A stretch of 51,474 nt of DNA, counting the filler, from Circinaria calcarea (lineage: Eukaryota), in the NCBI GenBank assembly GCA_051942165.1. It is 3 parts of 3 records of this genome, joined end to end, with 100 filler letters (N's around TTAATTAATTAA, not from the genome) between each part and the next. Parts side by side here need not be neighbours in the genome. Positions count along the whole stretch, not along the records: positions 34,436 to 51,474 come from JAVECS010000287.1; 2 more parts are not named here. One strand, given 5' to 3'. Below the pieces are notes generated by a model. The model ran no database searches. It saw only the letters and a program-made list of their open reading frames with translations, and was not told the DNA's origin. The position numbers and the translations under genes are program-made. Below are positions 22,421 to 51,474 of this stretch, piece by piece. Position 1 is the stretch's first letter. The number at the start of each line of letters is the position of its first letter.

Positions 22421-22541
22421 TGATGCTGATGCCGATGCCGATGCCGATGCCGGTGCTGATGCTGATGCTGATTTGCAGATGCAGTCCCGCCCGAGGTAGC
22501 ACTTTGAGGGGCGGTGAGGTCTGAGGTCTGAGGTCTGAGGT
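22421..22541. repeat. Microsatellites: (GATGCY)n hexamer array about 22421-22472 and (GAGGTCT)~4 about 22516-22541
   Basis: tgatgctgatgccgatgccgatgccgatgccggtgctgatgctgatgctgat; gaggtctgaggtctgaggtctgaggtc. Confidence 0.85.
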
Positions 22542-23087
22542 CCTCCCGATTACTAAATAATAAACTTTCATCTGGTGAACCTATCAGTTGCCAACCCCCC
22601 TACCACGGATCCACCCTCTCAGCGGTCCTTTGGCATGACGATGACTTGCAGTAAGTGCCTCGGTATGCCTTTTGCAATCCCGATAATACACCCCCCCCCC
22701 AGTCCACCAAGTCCGTTCGTTCAGCCTCTCATCCGTTCCAAGGTGCTGTGGGAAAGAGTGCCGGTGATAGAGCACAGAATAGCTGGGATCGAACGTGGCT
22801 GACTTGAGGTGGAGGTCTGTCCGAGCATGCCAAGGGCACTCGGGCTCCACTCTTCGGAGAATTTTAGGAGTGCATGACGTTTCCCTACTGCACCAGCCCT
22901 GCAGCTGCATCTAGGCTATCGACACGCACTCGCAACACTATCGGGACAGGACCGCAGAATCATAGAGACGTGATTACAGAACCGGCGTGCACGCTCCGAG
23001 GAGGAGCAAGGCCCAAAAGGGTCCGAGCCAAAAGCTCGTGATGCCCCCCGCCTGGGACTGAGCGCCTCGTTGCTTAGACTCATGCAC

Positions 23088-25142: not shown

Positions 25143-25619
25143 TTTCGAGGGTTTCTTATGGCGTACAGTGGTAAAGTCGGGTCAAGAGCAATTCTCTCAG
25201 ATGTTTAGCCACCTGGTAGATCTTTGAAATCTAAAAACACCACAGGCACGTCATTTGTCAGCCTTACATAAAGCGCATGATCCGTGCGTTATCCACAACT
25301 AGCGCCGCTAGCTGACGGGGTCAACCCCTTTCGGCTACGATGAGGCTGTTTTTATTGAGGCATACCCGTAATATATCCATTTAAAGTCTGAACTTCTCTT
25401 AACCCAGATACCTATATAGAAAATAATATACATTTGTGGTGAAGGAACGTTACGCCGACGCAATGCCGCTTCAAATGGTAGCAGTAGATACACATCGCCA
25501 AACAAATGCACACAAAGTCCACCCCCAACCATTTGTGAACCCCTTTAAACCACGAGAAGGTCCCAAGGAAGCCTTTGGTTTACCATGAACGCCTCTGTAT
25601 ATTCAGCCGACAACCCCTA

Positions 25620-28291: not shown

Positions 28292-29432
28292 GCTGTGGCG
28301 GGAACAAACAGCATGGGGGCACCGGCTGAAACTTCGTAGACGTCGCTGCCTCAGGGAAGAGAGAAGAGAGAAGCGATTGCGCTACCGCCGTCTGTGATTT
28401 GATCCACCGCTGCTGACCGAGTGTGACACTGAGAACATACTCCCAGTATCTTCTCGCATGTGAAGCAACGTAGTGAAGCAAGGATAGCACTTGGATGCAG
28501 GTTATCCGCTGTATACCTTATACAATTCCGAATGCCTTTTAATAGAGAGAGAATGATATCTAAACTCCACCCTTGACCACTATGAAGCCACCAATTACCA
28601 CTAGCCCCCTCCCTTAGGACCTTAGCCTCGCTCGCTCCATCCGCACAGGCTGCCCAATCGGGGGACTCGCCCATATCAGATTCTTCCGCTTATAGAAAAC
28701 CCACACAGTAACAGGAAGTCAAGGAACGGATTTACAAAGGCTTTGTATCCCTGAATCAAGTGAACGGGGCTCGCTCGATGAGAGCATATTCTACTCATTG
28801 GGCCCTCCACATCCTTCCTATTCATCTTTCTCGAATCGAAAAACCTCACTGGCTCGTTCATGGCCCACGGGGAGCTTCACGTAGGCACGTAGGATACTCG
28901 GTCGGCTCAGCTAAGCGTGGTATAAAGTTACAGGCCGGAAGGACTCTGTAGGAGGAGATCTCTCCATCCACGGGTTTGAAAACGGGTGGTAAAAGTGCTA
29001 GATGCATCCCCACGGTCTAAACTCCAACAGTCACATATCTACCGGAGGCTACTCTCTGGAAGGACCAAACGATACAGGTTTGGGCAATACGGTAACTGTT
29101 ATTTCTTATTCGAATCCATAGTACCGGTGGATCTAGTCCTGGGTACTCGACCCCCGCAATAATCTCCCCAAAGGAAGACTCTCCTACGAACCCAAGACAT
29201 GGACAACCCTTCGTTCCCAAAGACAACCGCATTCCGACAGCCCCTGGAACCCGGCCCATAACACAACAAAAGCCCCGTCTACTCTATAAGCGCCAAATCA
29301 CAACCGAACGCAATCGCTGCACCGCTATGCATGTGAAGGACGACCCCGGGTCCAGAGACGTCAGACTGCGGAAGGTTGTACCAGGCTCCACTTCAAAAGC
29401 ATAAAGTTCAAACACCAGTGCCCGTCTCCTTC

Positions 29433-32400
29433 TCAATCGATATCCACAAGTTTGCCTTTACGCTCGGCCTTCTTGGCCCCTTCTTTGAGGCCATCAAAAT
29501 CCCCACTCATCTCGCACATGCCGCGAAACACACCACCGTCTCGTTTGATCAGCTCCCATGGTGCATCAAACTCGACCAGCTCACCTTTGTCCAACACGAG
29601 GACTTTGTCATAGTCGATAATCGTCTCCAAGCGATGTGCGATCGTTATGATTGTACTTCCCTTGACCTCTCTAAGGGTCTCCTGGATCTTGGCATCAGTC
29701 GCATAATCAATCGAGGCCGTTGCTTCGTCCATAATCAACACGCGAGGAGACTTGAGGAGGGCACGGGCAAGGCACAATAATTGCCGTTGACCTTGGGACA
29801 GGTTTGACCCTGACTCGGATATAGACGACGAGAGGTTATAAAATGTGTTTGCGTTTTCGCGCGTGTTCGTGTCAACTTTTGTGAGACCAAGTTTTGGATC
29901 AGAATCGTCAAAGGTAGAAGTGGGTGACTTGGGAGGTGTTAGCATGGCGGCCTCTAGGTTTCCAGATGATGGGGGTGATGATGAGGTAGATAATGGCGTG
30001 CCAATAAGGTGTACACTCCGCAATGCAGCATAAAGCTCCTCGTCCGTGAAAAGACCGAAAGGGTCTAGGTTACTTCGGATGTCGCCCGTGAAGAGTGTTG
30101 GGTCCTGACTGACAATACAAAGGGATTCTCGTAGATCTTGAAGACCAATCAAGCCAATATTAATGTCGTCAATCAATATCATACCGGAGTCCGCCTCCAG
30201 ACCTCTGAACAATGCGAGGGCCAAAGAACTTTTGCCTGCACCTGTTCGACCTACGATCCCAACTTTCTCCTCTGGCTCAATTTTGAAGCTGAGGTCTTTC
30301 AAGACCGGAGCAAGATCGGGTCGATAACGTGTGGTATAGTTGATAAACCGGACCGCTCCGTGGTTGGGCCAATTTCCCGGGGGTTTGTTCTCCGGTATGC
30401 GGGCTCTAGCTTCCTGTTCCACATCAAGGTATTCTTTGACTCGCTCTACACTGTTCATGTTCTGTAACATGGAGTGGGTCAGTTGATTCCGTAATAGTTC
30501 TTTTGACGGTGGATCGTACCTGTTCATTTATCGAGTAGAGTCGCACGAGCCACAGGATATTCTGTTTAAACGTTAGTGTTGAAACTTTGTCAGGCCCTAG
30601 CAAAGTCTTTTCCAAAGGGAAGCCTACCTCGTTAAACATTGTGGCATATGTCAGAGAGAGCCCCGCTGCGCCAGGATCGATTTTGCCGACACTCAGCACG
30701 ATGAAAGCACCCGCGAAGAAGGACACCAGAGATCCGGCAGAGTCAACCCGGAGAGCCAGCCAGCGGTTTGTGGCCCATAGGTATATAAATGGTCTGTTAT
30801 AGGTATTGACACGAGCTGCGTTGTCTCGAACAAATCGAGACTCATCCCCGTACGCTCGAATCGTCGTAATCCCGCTCAAAGTCTCCCCAAACTGCTGATA
30901 CAACGGGCTCCTTTGGACCGATTCCAACCTTTTCAGATCACGTGAAGATTTGATATAGAACATACCAACACAAAAGTAGATACAACCGAGCAGAGCGCCA
31001 GCAAGGAGAAAAGCAGGAGTAATGATCGACACGAGGGTGATGATGGTAATTACCCCCAGCATCGAATGTACCACACCGCAGGCGACAAGAGCGAGGTCGC
31101 CGTCTATAAACTCAGAGTTAGCGTGTTGGAGTGTAGCTGCGAGAGTAAATGGAAGCTAACCTATATCTTGTAGGTCCTTGGAAAACCTGTTAGTTATCTG
31201 TCCAAGTGGGGTAGTATCGAAAAACTTAAACCTCGCTCTGGTGACGGCCTCTACTAACCGAGCGTGGATGATGCGAGATGCTGTCAAGGAGCCTTTGAAC
31301 GAAATACCGAAGCGGCAGATACAAACACTTATGTACAACAAACCGAGAGCAACATATACGCCCAAATAATAAGTAGCATGGACATCTGATGATGTGTTAT
31401 TTGTCGTCAAAGTATGCCCTGACGAATGGTTCGTGATGGGCGAATGACCAAGCAGGCGGACCCCATTCCACGAATGTCTCGTGAGAGTATTTAATGTTGC
31501 GACTAACTCTGTCCTCGGTGCTGTACCTTGGGTAATTGGCATCGTGTCAAGTCTCTTCCTATGGTATGAATTGGCCCAACGCCGTATCCATAGATTAGGG
31601 GCAACCGACGTGGTTTGCTCGCAGGCAAAAGCAAGGATTATTAGGATCCAGAAGTACCAAGGTCCCATGGAAGATAAATACACCTTGATGACAGGCCACT
31701 TCACTCTACCTTCTGATTTACCCTCAGTCCTTGCGCTGGAACTTTCGTCCTTCTCTTTAGGTTTCGATGGTAGCGTAGGCTCTTCGATCAGTCCCTTAGT
31801 CTTGGTAGCGTGGCCATTTGCATTGCTGCTTTGAGCGTCAAGGTCGACTGTTGACTGGGTACGGGAAGGAGCTCCAGTACCAGACTTTGATGTAGGCTGT
31901 GATAAATCATCACCTAGTGCCCCGGAAGACATAATCACATCCGGAGGCCCCTGAGCCTTGATCTTCCCATTGTCCAGAACGACCACAAATTGTGACTGAG
32001 GAACACACAGTGGCACGTTATGTGTGACAAGTATGCAGGTCCTGTTAAGCAGGAGGGGTCCCTTGATAGCATATAGGAATATATGCTGCGCAGTATGAGA
32101 ATCCACAGCACTCAGGCAGTCATCTAGCAGGATATGCCTTGAGTTGCAATACAAGGCTCTTGCTAAGGAGATGCGCTGCTTTTGTCCACCAGACACAACG
32201 ATCCCTTTCTCTCCTACAAGGGTTGAATCGCCAGCCTCGAGCACAGCAAGGTCCCTTTCCAGTGCACAGGCTTTAATGACGCTGTCGTACCGTTTTTCAT
32301 CCCAAGGGGAAGCAAACACGATATTTTGCTTGATGCTGTCATTGATACTGGCAAGAGTTAGAGGGGTGTCTGATCACAAGGCAGGTATCGAACTTACAGC

Positions 32401-34335
32401 CAAGCCTGCTGGGCACAGTATGCAACGCTCTCCGTTAGACCTGTCTCCGGATCTGGCTTTAAGGTCTCCCGGCTATAGCCACCAGGCAGGTGAACCTTTC
32501 CTTCCAACAGCGTCATTTCTCCCAGGAGAGCCATTAACAAAGAAGTTTTCCCGGATCCTGTGGGCCCCGCGATAATGTTCAGATGACCAACTCGGAATCT
32601 AATGTCGATATTGATCATGCGAAAAGCTTGGGCATTCTTATGATCCTGGGGGTCCCGGCCTCCCCATGTGAGGGTTGCATGGTCAAGGCCAATTACCATC
32701 TCTCCATTCTGATATTCCGGAATATGGGAAAGCTGAGCGAACTTCTCAGTCTCATCCTCATTCAAGAATTCCTCGACTCTGTTAATCGAGACCTTGCACT
32801 CCTGAACGCGAGCTAGCATATCGGCTATTTGATCTAAAGGATAGCGAAGGAGGCTAAATAGTGACAGAGCCGTGAAAGCAATCGAAGGAACCAAATCCTT
32901 CTTTTCGACGACCGTGTAGAAAAAGAACGAGAGGGCAGTAATGAGGAGGGGGACTCCGTACCAGATCATCGTGGCTCCGATCCATAGAATAAATTTATTG
33001 CGGAATGCCCGAAGCTCCACTTCCCGCTTATCGTTGATAATGTTTCCAAACCTTTGCTCCCACGCAAAATACTTGATGATGCGGATATTCTGTAGGACTT
33101 CATTGGTAGTATGAATTCGAGCGTCCGTGGCCGCCATGATCCTCTGCTGAAACGCACTGAATTTCCTGGCAACCAGGATGTTCACTGGCAAGAGCAACAA
33201 CATTGTGGCAATACTAAAGATGGAGCTGTACCCCAGAATGTGATAAAGGAGTACAACTGCCACAGCAAATTGGACGGGCGCGGTAGGGAAGAGAAAGTGC
33301 AGGTACGCACTTACGTCACTGATTTTGGCGGCATCCACGGCCATTAAATTAATGATTGTCCCCGCGTTGACTTGACTGTCTGTCTTTTGTTCTTGTGAAG
33401 CAACCTCGGGTGACGCTTCAACCTTTTTCTTACGCCCAAAAGATAGAACCTTTGTTTTGAGTCCAGGTTTTGACGTCGGACCTGTGTCCAAGAGCTTGCT
33501 TCCTTTTTGACCGAGGATCGTGTCTGAGCCGGCAGCGGCTCTTCGCCTCAGTGTCTTCGCATAGATTTCACCAACAACAATGGCTCGTAATCGAATGCAG
33601 ATTTTACGGCCGATCCATAGAGCTTGGCCCGCTGCTATCCCCTGGACACAGCCGGAGAGACCAAGCAGGATTAGGTAGAGCCAGGCGGCAGTCGCCGGCA
33701 CCCTCTGTGGGTCTTGAACATATTCGAGAATTAATTTCAGAAGCATTGTCGGTGCAAAGGTCAGGAGCCCGGCCAACATCGCCCAGACTGCCTGGACCAA
33801 TAAATCCCGCTTGAAGTAGCTCAGCATATGCCAAGCTAAACTTGAGGTCTTCTTGAGCTGCCTGAATTCCGCAAGTACGTTCGTCGCTCTGTCTTTAGGC
33901 ACCAGGTTCCAAACATCGCTGATCTCGAACGGTTTCTTGTATCCTTGCCACACAATTGCGTCGACCCAAGAAAAGGTGGCGAGCGAGATCAAGCTAGCCA
34001 GTGGCTCTTTCGAGGGTTGCAAATTGTCCTCGTGCTTTAGAATGACTTTACGATTCCCTCTCCGTGTGGTAAGAGCGATCAAAGCCAGCAACGAGGTTAA
34101 CACAAAGCTTGCAACCATCAAGGCCTTGGCGTGACTCGAATGCGGGTGGATCAAGGCGGATCGGAACAGAAAAACCGTCAAAACCCAGTTGACACAATAC
34201 AATACAGCAGTATGATTCCATAACTTTGGTAACGGGCTGCGTTTGACATGGGCTAGCATCACTCTAGAGTAGGCGAGCGTGGCGATATAGATCCACACGG
34301 AGAGACTTGTGATTGCTGCGATGTCTCCATTCCTG
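29433..34335 (-). CDS. YBT1: ABCC/MRP-type ABC transporter, Ybt1/bile-acid-permease-like; 5' end cut by the contig edge; introns 32397-32348, 31160-31104, 30627-30562, 30519-30462
   Basis: TMD-NBD-TMD-NBD layout. NBD1: GPTGSGKTS, VSGGQKQRI, LLDD. NBD2: GRTGAGKSS, LSQGQRQLL, MDEATAS. FFDTTPLGQITNRFSKD is ABCC-typical. The frame is open up to the N gap. Orthology to YBT1 is from recall only. Confidence 0.9.
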
Positions 34336-34435
34336 NNNNNNNNNNNNNNNNNNNNNNNNNNNNNNNNNNNNNNNNNNNNTTAATTAATTAANNNNNNNNN
34401 NNNNNNNNNNNNNNNNNNNNNNNNNNNNNNNNNNN
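34336..34435. other. Artificial contig spacer N44-TTAATTAATTAA-N44
   Basis: Identical to the spacer at 17146; 12-mer at 34380-34391. Confidence 0.98.
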
Positions 34436-34516
34436 AGCCCCAAATACGGATACAGTTAACAAAGCGTCTAGAACCCTTATCACAGCTAATGGCCTGGCTC
34501 TAACTCTCAGTCCATC

Positions 34517-34570
34517 ACTTCTACTTCTACTTCTACTTCTACTTATTCAAGCATAGCATAGCATAGCATA
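34517..34570. repeat. Microsatellites (ACTTCT)~4.5 and (GCATA)4 near the contig start
   Basis: acttctacttctacttctacttctactt; gcatagcatagcatagcata. Confidence 0.8.
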
Positions 34571-34966
34571 CCGCTACCTCTCACTTGCACCTTTCAACCT
34601 TCAACTTTCTTACCGCGGTTGGAAAAGGGGCAGAAGGGGAAAGAGGGGAAAAGGGAAGTAGTTTTGGACAAGGTGTTCTATCGTACTTAGTTTTACCCTC
34701 TGGGTCTGGGTCTGGTTTACATGCGAGAAGACTCGGGGCTTTCTAGGTAGCGCGGTGCCCTAGAAGAGGGGGGGGGAAAGGCGCCGTTCCAGTATGCCGT
34801 TACTTGAGAATTCTCCAAATCTCATGTATTCCGATAAATACATACTTATATATAGCCTTACAAAAGGAATTTTTACTCTACGCCAAAAACGCCAGTGAAG
34901 CGAAGCATTGCTCCCCTCCCCCCCCGTTGGGGCGTGAGCCATGACAGAAAAAACCTGCACATTTTT

Positions 34967-37900
34967 TCATCTCAAACTGTTCCCCGTTTTCACCAATTTC
35001 TGAAAAACCACAGCGACTTGCATGCCATCGATAGCGCTCAAATATTCCGCCACCAAGCCGTTGAGGCCATGCTCCTTTGCCCGTTCGATCCATTCCCGTA
35101 AAGCCAAGCCTTCAAAAGGCGTGCCGCTTTCATTCTCCAAAAAGGCCTTTAGTGAATCCATCGGGATCACCACGTCTCCGGATTGGTGCAGGTATTCCAG
35201 CGGTGCCACTGTAGCGTCGCTCCGGTTTTGGAGGACTTCCTTCAGGATGCCGCTGGCGGCGTGAGCGACGGAGATGAAGTCCAAGTACCCCTTCCACCGG
35301 TTGGATTCCGGAACGGATTTAGTCAGGCGGGCAAATTTGAGCAGATTGTTCATCACGTCCATCTCGGGAACTTCTTCACCGGTAATGCTCGATGGACGAT
35401 GAATCCATATGGGTATCCCAAGACGTGCGTGTGCCTTTTCCAGGATGATTTCGCTCGCCCATTTGGTAGCCGCATAGCTATCGGCAAAACCCGGCGGCGG
35501 AGGGAACGATGCCAGTGAAGTTTCACCAAAGGTCTCAGCCTTGTTCAGTCGCCCAACGGCAACCGATGAGACGTAGTGAACGGGGATCTTGCGACCACGT
35601 AATAGCTTTATAATCTCTTTGGTTGACTCGACATTAGACGGCTTCATAGATTGATAACTTTTGAGGAAAGATACATCAGCGCCATTATGGATGACTGCAT
35701 CGGCCTCGTTGAAAATTGAAGATGCGGCTTGCGCGGAGAGTCCGCACCGCTGGAGTCCTAGATCACCTGTGTGAACGACAACCTTCCCCGAGTCGAGGAG
35801 CTCGCCAAGTTTTCCTTCAGTCCGAACCGCGATACAGTGCACTTTGTCGACGTTAGGAGAAACGATCAGTTGTCGAAGGATCTCTTTCCCGAGGAAGCCG
35901 GTTGAACCTGTAAGGATGATTATTCGAGGTGTATAGAGGGTGATCTGTGCATTGCCATGGGGAAGCGGCTTCAATAGGTCTTCGGGCAAAGCCGTCTCCC
36001 CTTCCCAGTCAATTGAGGCAAGCTTGATGCTTCCAGAATCCTGAATGGCTACTGCCATAGCCCTAAGTGTACTGCATTCGAAGAGACGCATCACTGACAG
36101 ATTAGCATTGAAGTGATCCTGAACTAGTCCCTGCAGCTTAATTAGAAGCATGGAATTGCCACCGACATGAAAAAAGTCCGAATCCGCGTCAATGCTGTAG
36201 ACCTGCGTAACGTGCTCCCATAGTACTTCTTCCCAGATCTGTCGGAGTCGAGATTCCGTGGCTGTGAGGTGGTCGCTAGGAGCAGGTCTTTCCAAGCTGT
36301 TCTCAATGGGAAGACGCTCGAGAGCCCGTCTATCAATCTTACCATGTAAGCTTAACGGCATGGACTTGATAGGAATGATGGCTGCTGGTCGCATATACTG
36401 AGGAAGAGGGAGGGTTGGAATTAGCTGCTGGAGAAACTTGCTTTGGCTATCACCGGCGAAGGTCGAAGAAAATACAGCGTGAGCTATAAGGATTGGAGGC
36501 TCTCCCTGAGGCGTAACAACAGTTTCAGCCAAGGCGCCCTCGGCGACCCGAAGGATGGTGTTCTCGATATCTTCTATCTCAATGCGAATCCCTCTGAGTT
36601 TGATTTGTGTATCCCCATGAATGCGGCCATGGATCTCGAGTGCTCCATCTTCCCGAAGCATACCTCTATCTCCCGTTCGATATATTCTCGTCCATCCATT
36701 TGCGATGAAGTGAGATGACATGAAAGCATCGGAAACAAACTTTTGTTTAGCCTGTTCGTCATTGTTTAGATAGCCAATGGCAACACCTGCACCACCAACA
36801 CAAACCTCGCCAGGCACTCCGATTGGCACTGGTTTCAAATCTTCGTCTACAATGTAGACCGAGCAGTTTGGTAATGTATGTCCAGCAGGAACACGTTGGT
36901 CTGGTACCGCTCCAAGTGATAGCTCAGTCCGATTGGATGACACCGTGACTTCAGTTGGGCCATAAACATTGAATAGCCGCAATGAACCCTTGAGCTGACG
37001 CCTTATCTCCCGAAAGTCCTCATAAAGCTTCAGCGGGTATTGCTCACCGACGGAGAGAGCAAACTTCCAGTTGTTGCTATGTACGAGGTCACTGAATCCA
37101 TAGTGAAGCCAGCTGAGATACTCAGATGGTGTTGCGCTGGTATATGTAACCATCTCATCGACAATCACCTTTACCAACCCAATAGGATCTCCACGGATGG
37201 CTCTGGGAGCGACAATAAGGAGTCCTCCGTTGCTGAGTGCGGTAAAAACCTGATCGAGAGAGAGGTCAAAACTGAGCGCACATTGCTGCAGAACAGTCTC
37301 GGAGCCAAACTTATGTGTGTTTATAACCACTTCTATTTGATTGCGTAGGCTAGAATGTGATAAGATGACTCCTTTCGGTATCCCTGTTGTACCACTTGTG
37401 TAGAGTATTGCCGCTGGATCTTTGGCACAAGCCTTAACTTGAATCGTCCCCAAAGCTGACGCCGGAATGCTAGAGATGTTGAGTATGAGAATTGGCGGCG
37501 ATGACTTCAATCGTTCTGCATCGGCTGCTGTGGCATCATGCACAAGTATGGCGGACGGATGGCAAGTTTCTAGCATAAGTGCCAATCTTGGTACCGGTAT
37601 ATTTATATCAAGTGGAACGTATATAGCCCCAATACGCATAACTGCCAGCATGGAGCAGATCCAGTCTGGGGTAGGTTCCTGAAATACGGCGACAGGCGCT
37701 GTTGGAGTAACGTTTGCACTAAGCAGGGCAGCCGCAATTGAGTTAATGCGGTATTTCATTTGCTGGTAGGTCCAGTTATTGCCCTGGGTGTCCTTTAGAG
37801 CAATGGAGTTAGGCTGTCTCACAATAATATCATCGACACGATGTGCGAGAGTTTCTGGCCATTCAGAGGTGAAAGTCAATCCTGCAAGAAGTCAGTATAT

Positions 37901-40900
37901 TGAGTCCAAATCGACCTCTACTGGGACTGGATTTCAAGTGAGGAGTTGTACGAAACGGAATACCGACCTTGGCCAAGTTGGATCGCATTACTAATGTCCT
38001 CAGCGGCGAATAGAGAAGGCTCGTCCAGGCGGGATTTCGGCGACTCTGAAAAGTGCTTCAGAAGATTGAAATAGATCTTGGCTAGCTGTTTGGCATCGCT
38101 AGCGGAATAAAGTTGCTTCTGCACCATAAACATCACAAGAGTATTACTGCCAGGGTTGTCCAAGATATCCAAGCTGATATCATAAGCAGTTCTACCAAAA
38201 GCATACTCTCCTCCTACACCCTCGAAATCTCCAAAGCTTCGTTCTTCTTTCACACCCTGGCGATAGTTGATGAATGCTTGAAACAAAGGGCTGTAAGACG
38301 TGGACCTAGGTGCCTTCACATCTTCAAGCAGTGTATCAAATGGCAACCGCGCATTTGCCATTGCTGAATATGCTTTCCTGCGGGTTTCCTTTAGAACGTC
38401 TCCAAATCGTTGGCTTGAGCTTAGGCGGAATCGCAAGGGAAGCAAATTCAGGTATATTCCCATGCTTTTGGCAGCCGCGTCATCATTACGATTCGCAGTG
38501 GCCATGCCAATGCAAAGATCGCTGGTATTAAGAAGCCTGAATAACATGACTTCATATACAGCCAAGTAGAAATGAAATACATTTGCCTTCTGCATGTGAC
38601 ACGTTTTTCTAATCTGGATGGCCAGGTCGGCATCGATCCGGGAGTCCTCTCGATTGTGGTTGTAGTTTTCCAAAGAGGCGCGAGTTTTAGCCAATGAGAA
38701 TGGGAGCAACGGCAAGGGCGGCGGATGATCCGCGAGTTCAGCTCTCCAGAACTCCATTTCATCCTTCATGCTACCGTTCTTAAGCTCTCGCTTTAGCTTA
38801 GAGGAATAATCTCCATACTGATATGCCGGCTGTGGCAGTGCTCGGTGATTGTATGCCATCTCTAAATCCGAGAGAAATACTTCGAGACTTGCACCATCCA
38901 TGTTGATATGATGGTAGCCGATGACGAGGAAGTTGACTGCCTGTGTTAAACATAGGAGTAAAACTCTCATAGTCTCGCCACGCTCAATATCAAAAACATA
39001 CTCCTTCATTGATTTAAACTCTTGAGAGACTTGACTTGCATCCCCTATCGACAGTGTTTCCAAATGAAGGGGTGATGTGTCAAGAACACCCTGCATCGGC
39101 TTTTGAGCTTCGTCGATGAAGAAACAGGTTCGTAAAGCTTCGTGACGAGCACCCACTATTTTAACCGCATTTTCTAAGTCGGTCAGCCGGATACTCCCTT
39201 GCAACCGGATGGAAAAGGTGATGTTAGACGTAGTCTGATCGGCAAGCAAATGCCTCAAAAACCAGAAACTTGATTGGCCGGGAGACATTGGCAATACCTT
39301 ATGCAAATTACGTTGTGGAATGGAAAGAAATGATTTCATCGACTCTGGCGGGCTTGAAGCGGGAGATAATTCTTGAGTTTCTTCACCTGTAGATTCGCTG
39401 GTACTAGAAGTGGTCGTGTCTGACGAGATCTGCTCAGGCAACGGTACATGAGTTGAAGGAGCAGTTAGCCCAATCTGTGGCTCATCTTCAAGCAAGACTG
39501 GGGGTGCGCTGCAGCTGATTCCTAGATTTGGGGTCAACTCTGCGGGGAGCTTCTCGATAGCGAACATAAGGAGGTCCACAATGGTAGCCCCCCCAAGGAT
39601 TTTGAGCACAGGCATATCGACTTCCAACTCTTTTAAGAACCAAGACCGCACTTCAACAGCTACGAGAGAATCGACGCCAAGCTCGTCGGCACCGGAGCTT
39701 AGAACTTGACTTTGCGCAGTGACACTTTCCAGAGGTAGTTGAAGTGCAATCTGTAGTTTTGCGAAAAATGCATCTTCTCTGGTCAGCATTTCTCTATATC
39801 TAATGAATGAGTTCTACTCACCTTTGACTATCTCAAAAACCTTATCTTGGGTGGATACTTCCAAAAGCTGTATTTTCACAGAGATTACCGCAGTCCCAGA
39901 ATTGGTCTTCACTTCATTAGTTCCACCCCGATCAAGACAATGTTGGAACCGTGGAACATTCATCCAAGGAGCCGGTTCTTCGTCGTTGGTATTTATTATT
40001 CGTAGTCCAGTTACGATCTCTGGATTAAGACCAGGTCCGGGCCGCCCTGCTCGGATAGCCTCAGCAATACACTGGTGAAACCCACGCTCGGACATCCATT
40101 TAAAGCCGGCTCTGTGAATGGCTGCGAACACAATCTCGCCGACTTCTCTCGTAACGTAGCCCACACCCATGACAGCGCCGATATGTAGAACAGAAGCTGC
40201 AAGTCCTTTGCTGCGGCGCTGAAAAGCAGTGGCAGCCAGAAACATGTTCGCTGCACTATAATTTGACTGACCACGATTTCCGGAAATAGCTGCGAGTGAT
40301 GAGAATAAGATAAAAAAGTCCAAAGAATCTTCCTGGAAGAGCTCGTTCAAGTGGATGCAACCCTGCACCTTAGGTCTTAACACCTTCTCCATTGTTTCAA
40401 ATGACATATCGAAAAATGAAGCGTCTTCGAGGACCATCGCACCATGGGCGATACCAGCGATAGGTGGGAACGTGCGGCGAATTTCGGAGACAACTGCTTC
40501 AACGGCAGCTTGATCGGTGATATCACTGCCAGTATTAGCTTTATCTCAGCAGATTTATCAAGGAAGCTATCAACTTTGAAAACACCTTCAACCTCACTCC
40601 CGCCGCTTGTATCTGCTTTAGCCATCTACTGTCGATTTTGGGATTCCGACTGGTAAGGACAAGATTCCGAGCCCCACGGGAAACCATCCAGTCACATAAC
40701 GACAGCCCCAAGTCACTTGTCAGCCCAAACAATATGTACGTCTTGTCATCTGCAAAATGGGTTTGGCCGTCGATCGATGATAATTTAAGGGGAATATCAA
40801 CCGTAACGCTCCAATCCACAACCGTGGACTCGACAATATTAAGGTTGGCTTGTCGGGTGATTTCTTCTGGTTTCATCACCGTCGTTAGGGGAATAGACTT

Positions 40901-43900
40901 GGCGTCTTTGGAGACTTCCACTAATGCTCGGCTTGCAGCACATTTGAGTTCTGGAATTAATTCTTGCTCGGCGACCCTTGCACCCTTTGTCTGAACCTGA
41001 ACCTCCTTTAGTGTTGTCCGTAAACACGAGCCAGGTAGACAAGAAGCGATTGATGATCCGAGGCGTTTGGATTCCGGAGAGACTGAACAGTCAATGAAAA
41101 CGGACACCCTAGGAGGCAAAGCTGCCTTGACTGTTCGACTGGGAGAGTGTGGATGTATTGTAATCCAGGAGTCGCCCAATGGTGCCGGGCTGGAAGTGGT
41201 GACAACGACGGTCAAACTCTTCTCCAAAGCGCGTTCGCAAAGCCTTGCTGCTAACTCTGGAGCAGGCTCATGAAGGAGAAGTGTCAAGCTGTGCCCGCAG
41301 AAAGACAATATACTGTCTACTTTGAGCTCGATTTCTAACAACGATAGCAATCGCGCCTCTTTCCCTTCAGTCAGCCTGCATTGAACTAGTCTCTCTGGTT
41401 CAATTGCTACATGAGAGCTATTGGCAGCCGAGAAACCTAATACCGTTTGCTCTGTTCGAGCATCTGTCCCAAAGACACTGTATATCTGAATAGAGTGTGG
41501 TGCCGCGATAGGCAATAATATTGAGTGACTGACTTTAACAAGAACTTTTGAATCAGATGCCTGCGCTTCTTGCGAGCCAAGGTTACCAGTGAACGGATCA
41601 TCTTGGACCAAATCGTATCCGGACTCAGAACGTTGTAAGCGAAAGGCGGAGGCTTGAGCGCTCTGTTTTTCGATAATTGTTCTCTTAGAGGCGTTGTAGC
41701 GGTCGTTTAGCGCTTGGTTCACAACGAGCCGTGGAATTATTAACCTGCCCTTTTCGTGTACGAGCTCCTGCTCAGTCGACCACAGAACGTTGTTTGTATT
41801 CCCCATATTCTCCCAAGCGCCAGTCAGGCGCAGTCGTAGTAGGGCTTCAGCGAGTAGTCGAGGATTTGGCTTCTCGGAAATATCAAGGTCGAAAAATTGC
41901 AGTCGAACATCAGTCATCTCCAAAGTCAGACTTCGCCCGAACCCAACTGTCATATTCATATAGGGCTCGTCAGCCCTACAGCCTTGAGTAATCCAAAGAA
42001 CAGTTCTCTGGGACTCGAAAAGCCTCTTTAAGCCATTCATGCTCTCGTTGGTAAAATCTTTAAAAATGGGATTGTCTAACTCCGTTACACTAAGTACGGC
42101 GCTTGTTGAAGATATTCTTGAAAAGTCGATATCAGAAAGAGACTTGAAGCAAGTTATCGAAATGTCCCATGGTTGAAGCAATCGAAGAACCTCGTCAATA
42201 AGAATAATAGTGCGCAGACTTTGTCCACCAAGCACAACCAGATTCCATTTATCAATTCCAAAATCTACTCCTGGATGCGAGAGAGGTTCTCGAAGAAAAT
42301 TGATTTGCTCATCAACAGCCTGAGCAGTTATCACGGACAATGGACGTGGTAGTGTGTCAATTTCGGGGGTGATGGAGTCGATTCCGGAAAATCCGGTATT
42401 TAGAAGCAGGCTGTGCCACTTAGCAGATGATACACAAGGCGATAATCGACGACCATCGTTCCGGCCAAGCCACCACCCTGGTAGACCGCTCATTGCAAAT
42501 CCCGTTCTAAGGACGTCGTTATTTGTAATCTCCAGTATTACAAGGTAGCCTCCAGGCTTTAAGAGCCGGCGAGTGTTCTCCATGGTATTCTTGAGGTCGC
42601 TAGTAGCATGGAGGACTAAGGAGCCAATGACAAGATCAAATGAATGTTCTTTGTATCCCTGTTCAACTACATCCTTCTCTGCATCGAGCACTTTGAAAAC
42701 CATCTTGTCCGCTTGCGCGGCGAAGACCTCTTGAGCCGCCTCGAAAAACCCTGGGGAGATATCCGTGTAGGTATAGGAGGAAAATTTCCGGCCGATATAT
42801 TTCATGATGGATTTTGTGGCTCCACCAGTACCAGCGCCTAGAGTCTATTTAGCATAAGATGATTCGGTTCAAGTAAAGTTTTCTTACCAATTTCGAGAAT
42901 TTCCATGTGCGGATAGCGATGAACCACTTGGGCAATAGTTTTGGCTAGGAAATCTGTACATTCCCTAAGGCCCATTGCATCTGTATAGTAGGAGTTCAAG
43001 AGATTATCTGCGAGTAGATGCTGGAGAATATTAGTTTCACCACGAACAGCGCTTGGCAAGTTTTCGCCAACTGCACGAGTGAGTTTCATCTCGATACTAT
43101 CGGGGTATCTAACGTAGAGATTAGCAGACGGCAACATAACAGCTAAAAACAAAACTCATTAGGATCGATCTAAAGGGATAGAATAAATCGATTTTTCACT
43201 TCTACCTCGATCGTAAGCAGCAAGGAACTTAGGAAACAGAACTCACCGGTCCATTATTGCTGAGATCTGTTCCCAGGTATCGTTGACCCACTCCTTCTTA
43301 GCATATGGTAATCTTCCACTGTAAAACTGCGAAAGCACATGTGAAGCAAATTCAAAAAGCGACTCATGATGCCATTCCAGGTTTTGTCGCTCGTTCTCTT
43401 TGATTTCGGTGTCTAATCTCTTGAGGTAGAAGAGCGATACACGTTCTAGCAAAGTGGCCAACTCGTAGTCGTCCTTAGATGCCCGATCTTTTGCCATAGC
43501 AAGTTTGCCGTCAGGAGACGCTACGTCCCAAACGTGCTCCGAAAATATTTGATGATCAAGTTGGGAACCGCCTTCCGAAAAAGATACCACCTTAACCCCT
43601 TCAACTTGTATCAATGCTGATTGTCCATCAGCACCAAAAATGTCCACGTCTCCATGGATCACGCTTGTAGTTAAGGGATTCTCAGTCAAATGTGAGCTCA
43701 ATGGTAGTGTCATCCCTGAAGCCAAGTCCTGCTGGCAGAGTGGAACGTTAATTCGAATGTTCTGAATGCTTGTTGGAACATGCAACTGGTCAAGACTTCC
43801 ATCGTTGGGCCACCAGTAAGCAAGAAAGATTGCCTGAAATGCTGCATCTAGCATAGCTGGATGAACTAGTAGGGCATCTTCTATTGAATTATCCTGCCGT

Positions 43901-46900
43901 GGAACGGAAACGTTAGCGGAACCATAGTTCAGTTTTCTTTTCATTGATGACAGTGCTCTGAAATCTTCAGTGTAGCCATAACCAAGATTATCGAGGGATG
44001 AGTAGAACTGGTCTTCGTTTACAAAAACCATATTAGGGGGTTCGGGAGATCGAGGTGGGAGCCAATCTGTAGAAGGCTCACCGGGGATCACAAGAACCCG
44101 TCCGGAAGCTAGACCTGTGAGAGTATCCGAGTCTTGGTTCGTGCATGCGTGGTAAGTAAATGCTGCCGAAAACCGCCCTGTGCTGTCTTTGGAGATTTTG
44201 GAGAGTGTAAAAACGGTCTCAGCTCCAGACTCATCGTCGTCAAATGTCAGTGGCTTTCCGATTACAAAGTCACAAACTTCTATAAGGCCGATGGGTAAGT
44301 GATTAGCCAAAACTTTGGAGGCTTCCACAGCTGTAGCAATATATCCGGCCGCTGGAAAAACGATTTGTCCCTGGAGTCGGTGGCCGTGAAGCCACGGAAG
44401 TTCACTAGGTCGAAGAAGATTTCGCCAGCGCATCTCGTTCTCAACTTCATCGGTGATCCTAGATCCTAGCAGCGGATGCGGTCGATCCTTTCGAGCACGG
44501 TACACCCTAGACGCGCGAGACTCATGCCAAAATATACGATCGTGATCCCATTGGTATTTCGGTAGGAACTTCAAGAGTTCTCTTTTTTCGCTGCCAGAGA
44601 CCAGAGCATCGTACTGATCGAAGTTAACCGCGTATGGGCCAAGTCGTGTCCAGATAAAACCAAGTGCTTCAGAAACAGCCTCAATTTCATCAACACTACG
44701 GCTGAGCATGCCCGTGTATGGTATAGGCTGTCCATCAGTATCCTGGAAAGCCTGCAGGACTGGCTCTTTGAGGGCTGGGTGCGGGCCGACCTCAATTACA
44801 ATGTTGAAAGGACCTTCTTGGATTATCGCAGCCTCAACCGCTTGCGAGAACAGGACCGGGTTGATCATATTATCTCTCCAGTAGGTCCCTGTAAGCTCAT
44901 CGCGAGCCTCCATTTTCGTACCCTGATATGTGCTCGAGAACCAAGTGCAGCCATCTACTGGCTGTCGAGCTTCAATATGACACTCATGCAATGCGTCAAC
45001 ATAGGCGGTAGAACATGGGATCATGTGGTGGGAATGATAGGCCTTTTCGACCTTCAAGACCCTTGCAAACTTCTTTTCTTCTTCGAAGATGATTTTCGCC
45101 TCTTCAATAGCATCTGAATCTCCGGATAATGTCACGCTGGATGAAGAGTTGCAAGCGGCGACGCATAGACGATTTTCGAAGGATGGTAGGTTGCAGAGCT
45201 CAGTGGCATCCTCAAAGGACGTTCCAACTGCCATCATAGCTCCTTGTTTGTCGCGTCCGGCAAGTTTCGTGAATAGGCCCCGATAGTAAGCAATTTTCAC
45301 GGCTTCGTGGCAAGTTATCACGCCAGCAGCGTAAGCTGCAGCAATTTCTCCGGAAGAATGACCCACGACAGCCTTGAATCGAACCCCAGCACTCCTTAAG
45401 AGATCTACCAAGAGAATTTGAATTGCTGTACACACAGGCTGTGCGATGATAGCTTCATCAATTCGAGATTGCGAACTATCAGCCAGAATTTCCTTGACAA
45501 ACGACCAAGAAGGTCGATGAGCTTCCGGTAACGTTTTGAGCACATGGTCAAGATCGTCCATGAATTTCCGGGCATAATCAGACTTCAGTACCAATTGACG
45601 CCCCATAGTTGCCCATTGGGCTCCTTGGCCAGTGAAGACTCCAAGTACGCGAGGGGGAGTTGTCAACAGTCTGAGACCAACTCCAGCCCCTTGGTTCGGA
45701 TCGCTTCTGACAACTTCCAGATGTTTCTCAATTTTGGAAGCAAGTTCTTTTGACGATATAGCTGAAAAGGCTGCTCTCACAGGTAGCACAGACCTTCTAG
45801 CATGCAAAGTGTAGGATAAATTACGGAGGTTTAAAGCAGGATTGTCCTGGATGTGTGCCGAGTACGCCACGAGCATTGCTTGCAAAGCTTGGTCCGAAGC
45901 GGCAGAAAACGTGAAAGGGGTGAAAGGCGTGATACAGTGAGGCCCTCTTGTTTCAGGAAACACAAAGTTCTCAATGATGGCGTGTGCATTGGTGCCTCCA
46001 AAACCAAAGCTGTTGACGCTGGCACGACGAGGACTTCCTTTCGCAACCTCGGGCCATTGCTTGGCAGTCGTAGCAATCTCCAGATTGCTGTAGAACGGTG
46101 TGATGGCTGGGCTGAGAGTGTTGAATAGTAAATTAGGTGGGATGATCCCGTGCTGGACAGCAAGAGAAGCTTTCAATAGGCCAGCTAACCCCGCCGTTCC
46201 CTCAGTGTGACCAACAACGGTTTTGATAGATCCTACATAGAGCAAATCGCTTTGATCTGAGCGATGAGCATCCGGTGCAAAAAAAGCCTTGCTTATCGCT
46301 TCAGCTTCCTAAGTTCAAAGATTAGTGACGCATCGACACGACACGACACGATGGAAGCTTACACAAGCGTCACCCGCCGAAGTTCCAGTACCGTGAGCTT
46401 CAAAATACTGGCAGCGCTCATTGGGATCTTGCGGATCCAATCCCGCTTTGGCATAGGTCTTGGCAATCAAGTTGGCTTGCGCGATTTGACTCGGCATTGT
46501 AATACCCCTTGTTCGGCCATCCTGATTGACACCTGTTTCACGGATAACACACTCAATGTGATCACCGTCTTTTATTGCCGTGCTGAGTCTCTTCATGACC
46601 ACAGACGCTATGCCCTCTCCCCTCGCATAACCGTCAGCGTCAGCATCCCACATACGAGATCGACTACCAGGGGACAGCATATGCAGCTTGCTCTCGCCAA
46701 TGTATAGTTCGGGACCAAGGATAAGGTTGGCCCCCGCTGCAACCGCAACCTCTGAATCTCCACTCCGTAGAAGCTGGACCGCCTGATGTACTGCAACTAA
46801 GCTAGACGAACAGGCTGTATCGATGGTCATACTGGGACCATGCCAATTAAAGAAGTATGATACACGGTTGGATATGATACTGCGAGCAGTCCCGGTTGGC

Positions 46901-47367
46901 ATATAAGTTGGCGAAGAGTTGATGTCGCGCTGCAGGTGTTCGCTGTAGTCACCGCACATTAGTCCAACGTAAACGCCAGTCTGAGATCCAGATAATGCTT
47001 CAATTGTTATTCCTGCAGACTCCAGAGATTCGTAAACAGTCTCCAACAGCAAGCGCTGTTGGGGATCGACAGAATGTGCTTCTACAGGCTTGATATTGAA
47101 AAACCCGGCATCGAAGACACGATGGTCCTCCTGAAGGAAGTAAGATTCCGTGACGTTTGAAGTACCATGATGCATTCCGTTTGGATGATAAAACCCATCG
47201 GGGTTGAATCTGTCTTTGGGGACTGTGGTGAGCACATCATGGGGTTCACGCAATAGCTCCCAAAGTTTGCTAGGACTATTCGCTGATCCCGGAAATCGAC
47301 AGCTACTCCCGATAACAGCAATAGACTCTTCAGCCATGCCTTTGCGGCTAGGTGACGAGCTTCCCAT
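34967..47367 (-). CDS. Hybrid iterative HR-PKS-NRPS (KS-AT-DH-cMT-ER0-KR-ACP-C-A-T-R), about 3,991 aa; exons 47367-46363, 46308-43247, 43108-42888, 42837-40575, 40525-39822, 39773-37968, 37881-34967
   Basis: [51 protein letters not shown] and [26 protein letters not shown]; degenerate ER ([10 protein letters not shown]); [81 protein letters not shown]. Six GT-AG introns give 11,976 coding nt with no internal stop. Start could alternatively be ATG 47337. Confidence 0.96.
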
Positions 47368-48442
47368 ACTGTCTGGCGCGATACTGAGAGGCTTGTAGAA
47401 AGGACGATCGGGATCCACGGTGTCAATTGGAGTATCAGGTTGAACTGTCTCTTAAACCACCAAGGCTTCAAGGAGAATTAGTCAGACTCGACTGTGATTA
47501 TGAGAAAGAAGATCCATTGTGACGTTAAAGGGGCATCACATGGCTATTCTTTAACGATAGGAGAAATAACAGAACCAGCTAGCAGTAAACACCCTCTCGG
47601 CGCCAGACACGGGAAGTAGTATAGCTTGAAATCGGACTATACACGGAATGTCTCCGAATATGCGAAAAATTCGGAGCTCGACTTCGACCCTGTAGAATCA
47701 AGCCAATCTAGTGTAAGCAAGAAAGCTTCGGGGATATGAACTCGTGTGCTAAGTTTAAGAGAACTCGGACCAAGAAATACGTTTGGGATGCCGAGTTTGC
47801 TCGGATAAGAGCAGTTTACTCGCCAGTAGCCAACAGTGCTTATAATTCTACAATCCATTTTTCTAGCAGGCATGCCCGAATGTGAAAGTGACTCAATCAG
47901 CAAATAGTAATGCAGCAAGAGGATCTAGCGAGCAAGTGGATTGAAATCACTCAAGTAAGATGATTAATATAATTAAGATAGCTAGCTTAATACTCGGATG
48001 GTGGTAGTAGTATCGGTAGAGGTTGTTATTGTTGGTAGCCAAATGATGATGTACTAATCACCATAAGGCTGAGTCACGTGCAGGGCGTGCTCCTTTACGC
48101 GGGCTTGAAACATAATATCTTAGGGTTACCGATGTCTACTGTTCGTAGGCATTAATAATTACCACCGTCGGCCAGGTTAAACCAAGACCGTGAGAGTACA
48201 CGCGACAATCGAAATGCTGTGCCAGCATCCTAATCATGTTGCATTCTTACTGGTGGCTTCGGTTCACAACATTGCTACCCAGATGTGAAAGATTTCGGGA
48301 AGAGAAGAGCACGACTCTATTCAAAAATGTTTCGTAGCCGATTCGGCGACTTATGCGAAGGTGATTATATGCCTAGTGGCCAGTCTACGCTCCCCGGTAC
48401 ACATAGGAACTTTCGTCGGATCAAGAGTGGGGACGAGAAAAG
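47368..48442. promoter_or_regulatory. Divergent (bidirectional) promoter region between the PKS-NRPS and the PydY-like gene; TGASTCA at 47889-47895 and 48070-48076, CACGTG at 48075-48080
   Basis: Head-to-head gene orientation; motifs read directly; function inferred only. Confidence 0.5.
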
Positions 48443-49116
48443 ATGGCGGCACCCGCTGAAGTTACTATGAAAGACCTCAATGGCGACTGGGTTATGGTGA
48501 GTGCACTTCAAATGACTACCGTCCCCTGCCTATGCATATCTCGACATTCGTCGTGCCACTTTGCTGACCGAGCATACAGAACAAGACACTCTCTGACGAC
48601 CTTGACCCAGTTCTTGCCCTCCAGGGACTTCCCTGGCTCCTCCGCAAAGTTGTCTCTTGGGCTACCATCACTATGCATGTGAAGCAATACATTGATGATG
48701 TTGGCATAACAAACATCCGTATCGAGCAGACAGCGACAGGAGGCATCAAAGGTGAGACAGAGCTACGCAAGCTTGACTGGAGTGAAGTTCCCCACGTTTC
48801 CGGCGTGTTTGGGGAGATGATGAACCACTCACGCTGGAGCGGTGTGAAGCAGAATGCACGGAGTGGTGACGGGGGCACCTTGGATACATTTTTGACCGAA
48901 GGATGGTTGGAAGAGGCAGCGGGTACAAGGGAGGACGAGAACCATGTGCAGAATTGGGTTGTGAACAAGAAGGGTGGGTGGACGGCGGAGCAAATGTGGG
49001 GTTTTGCCATGGTAGATGGGAAAAGATACCATGTCAAAAAATTTCTGGTGAAAAAGGGAGGCGAGATGGAAAAGGTTAAAATGGTATATGATTGGAGAGG
49101 GAAAACGAAGCGATAA
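48443..49116 (+). CDS. Lipocalin-like protein of the PydY pericyclase-like family (often loosely annotated as LCCL-domain protein), 196 aa; exons 48443-48496, 48580-49116
   Basis: Spliced product MAAPAEVTMKDLNGDWVM-NKTLSDDLDPVLALQGLPWLLRKVVSWATITMHVKQY...GGIKGETELRKLDW...GWTAEQMWGFAMVDGKRYHVKKFLVKKG..VKMVYDW. It has the lipocalin/FABP G-x-W strand and LQGxxWxxRK helix. Intron 48497-48579 is GTGAGT..GCTGAC..CAG. Gene model solid; family name from recall. Confidence 0.8.
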
Positions 49117-50132
49117 TAAAATACATCAAAGGTATTCTTCTCTACCTTTATACAGGCAAGCTCGCCTTTTTGCCTTTTCCTGCTACGGAAACAATCATCC
49201 CCAGGCCAGACCGCGTCTATCAGGCGAACCCCTATTAATCTGAATGCAAATCACTTGTGTATTCAGATTGATTATAAGAACTTTCACTTGATATTCTCTT
49301 CTCCTTGCTGGTAGGGCGGATTGTGTCCAATTAGAAGTCAGAAAGATACCATGCGTAAATAGAATTATGTCTTGCAGGTACCCTTGTTCAGGAGAGATTT
49401 TCCCCAGGAGATCGGTGACATGCGCCTTTCTAGCTCTACCACTTCTAATATCTCTTAATTTGTTTCTTTATGCCGCTGCGAGTATGACCCGAGAGAACCC
49501 TTCATATTCCAAATCCTCACCTACCCAACACAACCCGAACCCGAACCCGAAACCAAATTCCAAATTCCACAATATCCCTCTCTCCCGGTCTCCTCATTTC
49601 CCTTTCCCTTTTACTTTTCTTTTCCTTTCCTCCCCTTCCCCCCAAGCTTAAACCCCCCATTCCCCCCTTGACCCGTCCCCCTCGGTACACGATGCAGATG
49701 CAACAACACTTCACGCCCCGTGGCCATCAGGAAACACGAGGTACGAGACACGAGACACTAGACATGGAAACTGAAAACTAGAAATGGGAAAAAATCACTA
49801 ATAAGACTTTTGAATTCACGAAAGGGATGAAAGAAGCTAAAGATATACACAACGATAGGAGCCCTCTGTTTGAGCTGGGAGGTGGGGGAGCTTTTGGGGC
49901 CAGAAACGGTGGTGTACCCTACCGGGCCTTTGACCAGTTTAAATAGCACACAAGCTGTCGTTGATGTTCCGAGAAAATGTTAGAGAGTGTAGAATCCATA
50001 TTTCCGGCATCTTTTCCATTCTATCTGGGGCCGAAAACATAGAGACTTTTTCTCTGTACGACTTTACCTTATTCCACTCACACACACCCACTTCTACCTT
50101 GGAATTCGTAAATCTCCCTCAAAAACTTCCCT

Positions 50133-51429
<1,297 letters not shown>

Positions 51430-51474
51430 CTAGGGCAAGCAAAGTCAGCACGGGCAAGTATACGCTTGAGTGGA

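What the first reader, a model, noticed from the sequence alone, without database searches (positions are those of the whole stretch)
34967..49116. Intact PKS-NRPS head-to-head with a PydY-like lipocalin: candidate undescribed pericyclase-containing pathway
Seen: a complete ~3,991-aa PKS-NRPS shares a 1,075-bp divergent intergenic region with a two-exon 196-aa lipocalin-like gene, which the ORF track splits into two meaningless pieces. Established: PydY/GkaY-type lipocalin-like proteins act as pericyclases with PKS-NRPSs in pyrrocidine/GKK1032 (hirsutellone-family) biosynthesis. Decalin tetramate and cytochalasan clusters instead use larger Fsa2/CghA/CcsF-type Diels-Alderases. Inference: the pair may make a cyclised polyketide-amino acid hybrid. 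The other hirsutellone-type genes are not on this contig, so the cluster architecture and possibly the scaffold differ. Caveat: this lipocalin-like family also occurs outside clusters in many ascomycetes.
Basis: partly seen in the sequence, partly recalled or inferred. Interest (0 to 1): 0.8.

Follow-up and report, generated by a model that had tools for sequence, protein, structure and literature searches.

The report
Lichen talaroconvolutin-type hybrid synthase cluster fragment
A lichen fungus carries an intact polyketide-peptide synthase beside a small lipid-binding-fold gene, both ordinary members of a known kind of fungal cluster whose ring-closing enzyme lies on another contig, though the compound made and the small gene's job are still unknown.

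Summary
In detail: an intact 7-exon, 3,991-aa PKS-NRPS lies head-to-head (1,075 bp) with a two-exon, 196-aa gene, and the pairing recurs in other lichen fungi. The interpretation mostly fails. The contig is a 17-kb fragment that breaks about 530 bp after the synthase. The closest named synthase is TalA (61%; ZG-1494alpha/talaroconvolutin), and the PKS part falls outside the hirsutellone clade (AU p=0.02; p=0.09 on KS-AT-DH alone). The genome holds a MycB/Fsa2-family Diels-Alderase, trans-ER, regulator and MFS on another contig (C40). Their orthologues sit 1-7 locus tags from the synthase orthologue in relatives, but I found no physical join here. PydY homologues are already listed for the tal, myceliothermophin and chaetoglobosin clusters and for these lichen clusters, alongside such Diels-Alderases. 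The small protein has a fatty-acid-binding-protein fold and belongs to a cluster-linked clade (E77, S92), not the stand-alone paralogue. Best reading: a tal/myc-type decalin-pyrrolinone pathway with the small protein as an accessory binding protein. What remains open is its function and the product: the amino-acid pocket matches lichen orthologues at 9 of 10 positions and TalA, MycA and XenE at only 4 of 10.

The parts
34967..47367 (-). Hybrid PKS-NRPS, 7 exons, 3,991 aa, KS-AT-DH-cMT-(no ER)-KR-ACP-C-A-T-R; TalA/MycA-type
47368..48442 (.). 1,075-bp divergent intergenic region, 45% GC, with three CGG/CCG repeat sites of the kind Zn2Cys6 factors bind (motif recalled; chance not excluded)
48443..48496 (+). 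Exon 1 (18 codons) of the PydY-family, FABP-fold gene
48497..48579 (+). 83-nt intron, GTGAGT..CAG with a branch site
48580..49116 (+). Exon 2 of the 196-aa PydY-family protein; cluster-clade residues E77 and S92
50133..51474 (-). Thiolase (ERG10-type by recall), tail-to-tail with the small gene and running off the contig; taken as the cluster's edge, not a member
34336..34435 (.). N spacer between contigs; the real contig ends about 530 bp after the PKS-NRPS stop, on the side where most relatives carry the Diels-Alderase

Best explanation
This is the core fragment of a talaroconvolutin/myceliothermophin-type cluster in a lichen fungus (the database labels the proteins Circinaria calcarea). Shown: the synthase is intact, lacks an ER domain and ends in an R domain with intact Ser/Tyr/Lys motifs. 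Inferred from the known pathways: it builds a methylated polyene with a trans-acting ER, joins it to one amino acid and releases an aldehyde that closes to a pyrrolin-2-one; a MycB-type Diels-Alderase then forms the decalin. Inferred for this genome: ER, Diels-Alderase, Zn2Cys6 regulator and MFS are the genes on C40/C4107, probably continuing beyond the break at 34436. The 196-aa protein is a dedicated accessory member. It most likely works as a cytosolic FABP-like binding protein that holds the hydrophobic released intermediate, shields it from side reactions and passes it to the signal-peptide-bearing Diels-Alderase (about 45% within this reading). Alternatives are a stereo-steering second cyclase (30%), an acid-base catalyst using E77/E79 (10%) or a product sponge (15%). 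The amino acid is probably not the Tyr of TalA/XenE or the Leu of MycA, so the product is likely an undescribed analogue.
For: Whole-protein identity: TalA 61.4%, Caloplaca orthologue 60.5%, XenE 53.0%, MycA 51.5%, GkaA 51.2%. Deleting talA abolishes ZG-1494alpha and talaroconvolutin A (PMC5215926, passages). In the PKS tree the window groups with lichens (100/99) inside a TalA/Onygenales/MycA group (90/96), apart from the XenE/GkaA clade (100/100); AU p=0.0215. The genome search found 2 hybrid-type KS (C287, C66) among 12 matches and three Diels-Alderases. The C540 set joins C66 by an exact 103-bp overlap, leaving the C40 set for this synthase. The C40 enzyme's orthologues lie in the same clusters as the synthase orthologues: UA08_04450/04451, PRK78_001484/5, Q9208_004466/4470, Q9186_000429/435, Q9166_005923/5916. 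Its tree mirrors the PKS tree. The FunBGCeX PydY sheet scores the T. atroroseus, Coccidioides, Emydomyces and Letrouitia clusters 54.7-56.6 against the chaetolivacine cluster and lists the myceliothermophin cluster itself. FABP fold: Z 14.3, rmsd 1.9 A, 125 aligned. All 8 Diels-Alderases checked have a hydrophobic N-terminus (2.0-3.1) and the small protein has none (0.8). A-domain pocket: 9/10 with three lichen orthologues, 4/10 with TalA, MycA, XenE and GkaA.
Against: No physical link between C287 and C40/C4107 was found. On KS-AT-DH alone the hirsutellone grouping is not rejected (p=0.087), and on the A-T-R tree the lichen lineage sits in an open fork with both groups. In cf. Caloplaca sp. 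2 the Diels-Alderase lies on the small-gene side, where this genome has the thiolase, so a split cluster is possible. I identified no alpha/beta-hydrolase for the cluster on C287, C40 or C4107. There is a damaged second copy of the Diels-Alderase region (C427). No expression or metabolite data. The pocket positions come from recalled motif offsets, and such codes predict fungal substrates poorly. The carrier role rests on fold and predicted localisation only.
Confidence: 0.7

Rival explanations
1. The PydY-like protein is the pathway's main pericyclase and the cluster has an architecture without an Fsa2/MycB-type enzyme.
For: It is adjacent to the synthase here and in 4 lichen genomes with both tags seen. 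The cluster clade has fixed E77 and S92 (44 of 44). [quoted passage not shown]
Against: Relatives' clusters hold a MycB-type enzyme, and an intact orthologue exists in this genome with matching phylogeny. The myc and chaetoglobosin clusters have both proteins, with the larger one named as the Diels-Alderase.
Confidence: 0.08
2. The cluster is physically split or decaying: synthase plus small gene sit next to the thiolase while the ER and Diels-Alderase lie elsewhere, or the pathway is inactive.
For: No join found. A housekeeping thiolase follows the small gene. The C427 copy has a nonsense codon, an upstream frame shift and lacks most of the regulator-ER block.
Against: All C287 and C40 genes modelled are intact. 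The three genes after the Diels-Alderase on C40 (ER, regulator, MFS) match the three-tag gap in Pyrenodesmia. The assembly has 5,512 contigs.
Confidence: 0.13
3. It is a hirsutellone/pyrrocidine-family pathway making a tyrosine-derived para-cyclophane.
For: XenE and GkaA are 51-53% identical. The C40 enzyme is 46-50% identical to PydB, GkaB and XenF. The AU test on KS-AT-DH does not reject the grouping.
Against: The full-PKS AU test rejects it (p=0.0215), and the C40 enzyme lies outside the PydB/GkaB/XenF clade (100/99). The pocket differs from the DMNSTGA(M/L)SK of all 13 XenE-clade rows.
Confidence: 0.06
4. The small gene is the ordinary stand-alone family member and lies next to the synthase by chance.
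For: The family is widespread, with 108 hits among 141 candidates, mostly Ascomycota without a cluster link.
Against: The window copy is in a 44-row clade (SH-aLRT 99). 18 of 35 hits in the clade share a contig length with a synthase or Diels-Alderase hit, against 0 of 71 outside. A stand-alone-type paralogue (T77, D92) is on C5067.
Confidence: 0.02

Closest known systems
tal cluster of Talaromyces atroroseus (TalA, UA08_04451; ZG-1494alpha, talaroconvolutins)
   Same: Closest named synthase (61.4%), same domain string, DA_N/DA_C gene UA08_04450 (57% to the C40 enzyme), PydY homologue UA08_04444 (59%).
   Different: A-domain pocket 4/10; the small gene is 7 tags from talA there but adjacent here; different lineage within the tree.
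myc/cha clusters (MycA-MycB-MycC; myceliothermophin, chaetolivacine)
   Same: ER-less PKS-NRPS with terminal R, trans-ER and MycB Diels-Alderase (48% to the C40 enzyme); the myc cluster is listed among PydY-homologue clusters.
   Different: 51.5% identity; pocket 4/10; the C40 ER is a predicted 782-aa ER-ER fusion (I did not check whether MycC is).
Hirsutellone family (pyd, gka, xen clusters)
   Same: Sister clade of synthases (51-53%); PydB/GkaB/XenF are of the same DA_N/DA_C family; PydY gives the small protein's family its name.
   Different: Separate PKS clade and separate cyclase clade, different pocket; PydX/PydZ/PydE-type genes could not be tested.
FunBGCeX PydY-homologue clusters (PMC11109268)
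   Same: More than 300 clusters, including Caloplaca aetnensis, C. ligustica, Xanthoria sp. 1 and Letrouitia rows whose tags cover proteins 66-69% identical to the window protein.
   Different: A listing only; in the passages and table rows I saw there is no function or product for these lichen clusters.
Intracellular lipid-binding proteins (FABP/CRABP fold)
   Same: Beta-barrel with helix-turn-helix lid; Z 11-14 for the top ten chains.
   Different: 8-15% identity, about 50 residues longer, no Pfam match; ligand untested.

Membership tests
TalA/MycA-type PKS-NRPS decalin-pyrrolinone cluster | Intact KS-AT-DH-cMT-KR-ACP-C-A-T-R hybrid without an in-line ER | tested here: met
TalA/MycA-type PKS-NRPS decalin-pyrrolinone cluster | Reductive R domain with Ser/Tyr/Lys motifs | tested here: met
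   [12 protein letters not shown] and YAATK motifs, (motif meaning recalled)
TalA/MycA-type PKS-NRPS decalin-pyrrolinone cluster | PKS groups with TalA/MycA | tested here: met
   90/96 and 97; open fork, so moderate support
TalA/MycA-type PKS-NRPS decalin-pyrrolinone cluster | Trans-ER and MycB-type Diels-Alderase in the same cluster | tested here: inconclusive
   Present on C40 and orthologous to relatives' cluster genes; physical link not shown
TalA/MycA-type PKS-NRPS decalin-pyrrolinone cluster | Decalin-pyrrolinone product | not testable with these tools
   needs chemistry
PydY family | Homology to proteins caught by the PydY HMM | tested here: met
   Indirect: 67.7% and 68.0% to LQ346_003407 and L6R42_000914, each one of the two genes in a two-gene PKS-NRPS row of the PydY sheet
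PydY family | Direct alignment to PydY and shared active-site residues | not testable with these tools
   No call returned a sequence named PydY
PydY family | Pericyclase activity | not testable with these tools
   needs an assay
Hirsutellone family | PKS-NRPS in the XenE/GkaA clade | tested here: not met
   AU p=0.0215 on the whole PKS part; p=0.087 on KS-AT-DH
Hirsutellone family | XenE-type (Tyr) A-domain pocket | tested here: not met
   4 of 10 positions
Hirsutellone family | Cyclase in the PydB/GkaB/XenF clade | tested here: not met
   The C40 enzyme is outside that 100/99 clade; its assignment to this synthase is inferred
Hirsutellone family | PydX/PydZ/PydE (XenC/XenD) cyclophane-forming genes | not testable with these tools
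   no reference sequences were returned
FABP/iLBP fold | Beta-barrel with helix-turn-helix lid | tested here: met
   pLDDT 92; Z 14.3, rmsd 1.9, 125 aligned; exon 2 only was folded
Classical eight-stranded lipocalin | Structural match to lipocalins | tested here: inconclusive
   Best such rows Z 5.0 and 4.3, far below the FABP rows
Stand-alone 'LCCL-annotated' paralogue | T/S/A at 77 and D/N at 92, placement outside the cluster clade | tested here: not met
   The window protein has E77 and S92; the C5067 copy has T and D

The most novel reading that the evidence does not exclude
The E77/S92 clade of FABP-fold proteins is a dedicated enzyme of tal/myc-type pathways, a second cyclase or acid-base catalyst working on the released intermediate. 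The lichen lineage (Circinaria plus Teloschistales), with its own A-domain pocket and its synthase kept next to this gene, makes a nitrogen-containing polycyclic scaffold not yet described from lichens.
Probability: 0.25. Interest if true: 0.62.

Novelty: new member of a known kind. Interest (0 to 1): 0.36.

Why it matters
It points to a conserved, apparently intact PKS-NRPS pathway shared by distantly related lichen fungi whose product is unknown and probably uses a different amino acid from its characterised relatives. It also sharpens an open question: PydY homologues sit in decalin and cytochalasan clusters that already have a Diels-Alderase, so they may do something else. The fixed E77/S92 pair and the FABP fold make that directly testable. 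As a cluster type it is ordinary, and close lichen orthologues are already in a published mining table.

Tried and rejected
Sequence searches of the small protein against Pfam and PDB gave nothing significant; a family profile gave only weak FABP hits (E 0.012-0.05). The search for a physical join of C287 to C40/C4107 failed. The metagenome scan returned 2 loci of 92 candidate stretches, neither with a synthase, so the head-to-head orientation in relatives was not checked at DNA level; only adjacency of locus tags was. No sequencing run was listed and no RNA holder was listed; this is no evidence on expression. Earlier findings: nothing shown. Genes left of the N spacer (ABC transporter, alpha/beta hydrolase at 11286-12356 and others) were rejected as neighbours because they are on other contigs. 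The C540 Diels-Alderase/ER set was rejected as partner because it overlaps C66. The careful tree of the small-protein family did not finish, so the quick tree was used. The p-value ignores relatedness and is not relied on. The primary PydY paper was not held. Paper searches listed no paper on the function of the PydY homologue in tal/myc clusters or on this lichen cluster's product; most subscription journals are outside that library.

Full report
Observation. The window is three contigs joined by N spacers. The finding lies on C287 (window 34436-51474) of a 31.5-Mb, 5,512-contig fungal assembly; the protein database labels the two genes' products Circinaria calcarea Q9187_002183 and _002184. 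The synthase splices into one 3,991-aa frame over 7 exons with KS-AT-DH-cMT-KR-ACP-C-A-T-R and no ER; the 15 motifs looked for are all present. The small gene has two exons and 196 aa, and the ATGs are 1,075 bp apart. A thiolase follows tail-to-tail. The contig ends about 530 bp after the synthase stop, so 'other genes are not on this contig' says nothing about architecture.

The small gene is cluster-specific. Exon 2 found 108 relatives among 141 candidates, the best from lichen fungi at 63-68%. In a 117-row tree (hits P0002-P0107, 8 cluster members and 3 own-genome copies; P0001 and P0108 left out; quick method) the window protein sits in a 44-row clade (SH-aLRT 99) that holds all 26 outside rows I had labelled cluster-linked. 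A recount by equal contig length gave 18 of 35 hits in the clade linked to a synthase or Diels-Alderase hit, against 0 of 71 outside; the hit lists come from this cluster family, so outside rows could sit in unrelated clusters. The clade has E77 and S92 in 44 of 44 rows, where the 72 others have T/S/A and D/N. The genome's stand-alone-type copy on C5067 has T and D. Synthase and small gene carry consecutive locus tags in four lichen genomes; orientation there was not checked. A model of exon 2 (pLDDT 92) matches fatty-acid-binding proteins (Z 14.3, rmsd 1.9 A; classical lipocalins Z 5 or less). PydY-family membership is indirect: proteins 68% identical are one of two genes in two-gene PKS-NRPS rows of the PydY sheet of PMC11109268.

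The synthase is TalA/MycA-like. The best named match is TalA (61.4%), whose deletion abolishes ZG-1494alpha and talaroconvolutin A. On the whole PKS part the window groups with Teloschistales orthologues (100/99) inside a TalA/Onygenales/MycA group (90/96), and forcing it with XenE/GkaA is rejected (AU p=0.0215, 20 rows). On KS-AT-DH alone that forcing is not rejected (p=0.087, 19 rows), and the A-T-R tree leaves the fork open, so the lichen lineage branches near the split. The ten pocket positions (offsets recalled) match three lichen orthologues at 9 and TalA, MycA, XenE and GkaA at 4.

The missing genes are in the genome. Three DA_N/DA_C Diels-Alderases were found, on C40, C427 and C540, and two hybrid synthases, on C287 and C66. 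C540 overlaps C66 exactly by 103 bp, which completes a second cluster. C40 begins with MFS, Zn2Cys6 regulator, a predicted 782-aa ER-ER fusion and an intact Diels-Alderase; C427 is a damaged 87-95% copy, and both run into C4107. The C40 enzyme's best hits are genes of the same clusters as the synthase's best hits, for example UA08_04450 next to talA, and its tree repeats the PKS tree. In Xanthomendoza and Pyrenodesmia the Diels-Alderase lies on the side of the synthase away from the small gene, which is where C287 breaks; cf. Caloplaca sp. 2 has it on the other side. No join between C4107 and C287 was found, so the link is inferred.

PydB, GkaB and XenF, labelled 'hexane cyclase', are members of DA_N/DA_C clusters. 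The myceliothermophin cluster is itself on the PydY sheet, and the chaetoglobosin P cluster has both a Diels-Alderase (g68) and the PydY homologue g73. CHGG_01244, its counterpart, is co-regulated with the chaetoglobosin cluster and called unknown. PMC11109268 itself says these homologues might have a function other than pericyclase.

Mechanism. Shown: intact genes, domain content, recurring linkage, fold. Inferred from known pathways: trans-ER-assisted polyene synthesis, amide formation, reductive release, pyrrolinone closure and decalin formation by the MycB-type enzyme. Inferred and untested: the small protein lacks the hydrophobic N-terminus seen in 8 of 8 Diels-Alderases and has a lipid-binding fold, so it most likely binds the released intermediate in the cytosol and hands it on. 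E77 and the invariant E79 are two apart on one strand and probably face the same way, which keeps a catalytic role open.

What I saw of each paper. PMC11109268: passages and searched rows of its supplements; its Supplementary Fig. 7 and one spreadsheet were too large to read and may bear on PydY membership. PMC5215926, PMC6974552, PMC9055775, PMC8642415, PMC7399079, PMC10512409, PMC9316807, PMC6299560 and PMC8159843: passages only. Ohashi 2021 (PydY) and Li 2016 (MycB): not seen. My recollection that PydY is specific to the pyrrocidine route and that MycA, B and C suffice for myceliothermophin is unverified.

Verdict. A real and intact gene pair and a new member of a known cluster kind; not evidence for an undescribed pericyclase-based architecture. 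The residual interest lies in the unknown lichen product and the unassigned role of the FABP-fold clade.

Noticed in passing
G000 C540 + C66 (L018-L022): A second hybrid cluster, joined by a 103-bp overlap: P450, trans-ER, Diels-Alderase (41% to PoxQ), a divergent PydY-like paralogue (28% to the window protein), MFS, PKS-NRPS, P450 and a highly reducing PKS. The PKS-NRPS plus HR-PKS pairing recalls oxaleimide-type clusters (recalled).
   Followed up: partly
G000 C40:6644 down to about 4130 (L012, minus strand): The trans-ER is a predicted 782-aa in-frame fusion of two ER domains, 40% identical to each other.
   Followed up: partly
G000 C1627 (L043) and window 51334-51474: A 6,252-bp hairpin contig with arms 89-93% identical; both ends overlap the last 141 bp of C287. 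With the C40/C427 pair converging on C4107 this could be a large inverted duplication of the cluster region, or two haplotypes.
   Followed up: partly
G000 C427:1-14476 (L016, L017): Damaged copy of the C40 cluster part: Diels-Alderase with a nonsense codon, most of the regulator-ER block missing, and a NACHT-ankyrin gene in a stretch not shared with C40.
   Followed up: partly
window 39774-39821: Intron 5 of the PKS-NRPS needs an AAG acceptor; the public model uses it too.
   Followed up: yes
window 49117-49780: The public model P0001 splices past the natural stop into low-complexity sequence (281 aa); the 196-aa model fits relatives better.
   Followed up: yes
window 17246-34335: Separate contig with housekeeping-type genes: STE11-like kinase, GTPase, ubiquitin hydrolase and an ABC transporter cut at the spacer (STE11 label recalled).
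   Followed up: no
window 14329-15708: A 459-aa ORF on contig C284 with no Pfam match.
   Followed up: no
P0253: A 509-aa Gallowayella cf. fulva member of the small-protein cluster, either a fusion or a merged gene model.
   Followed up: no
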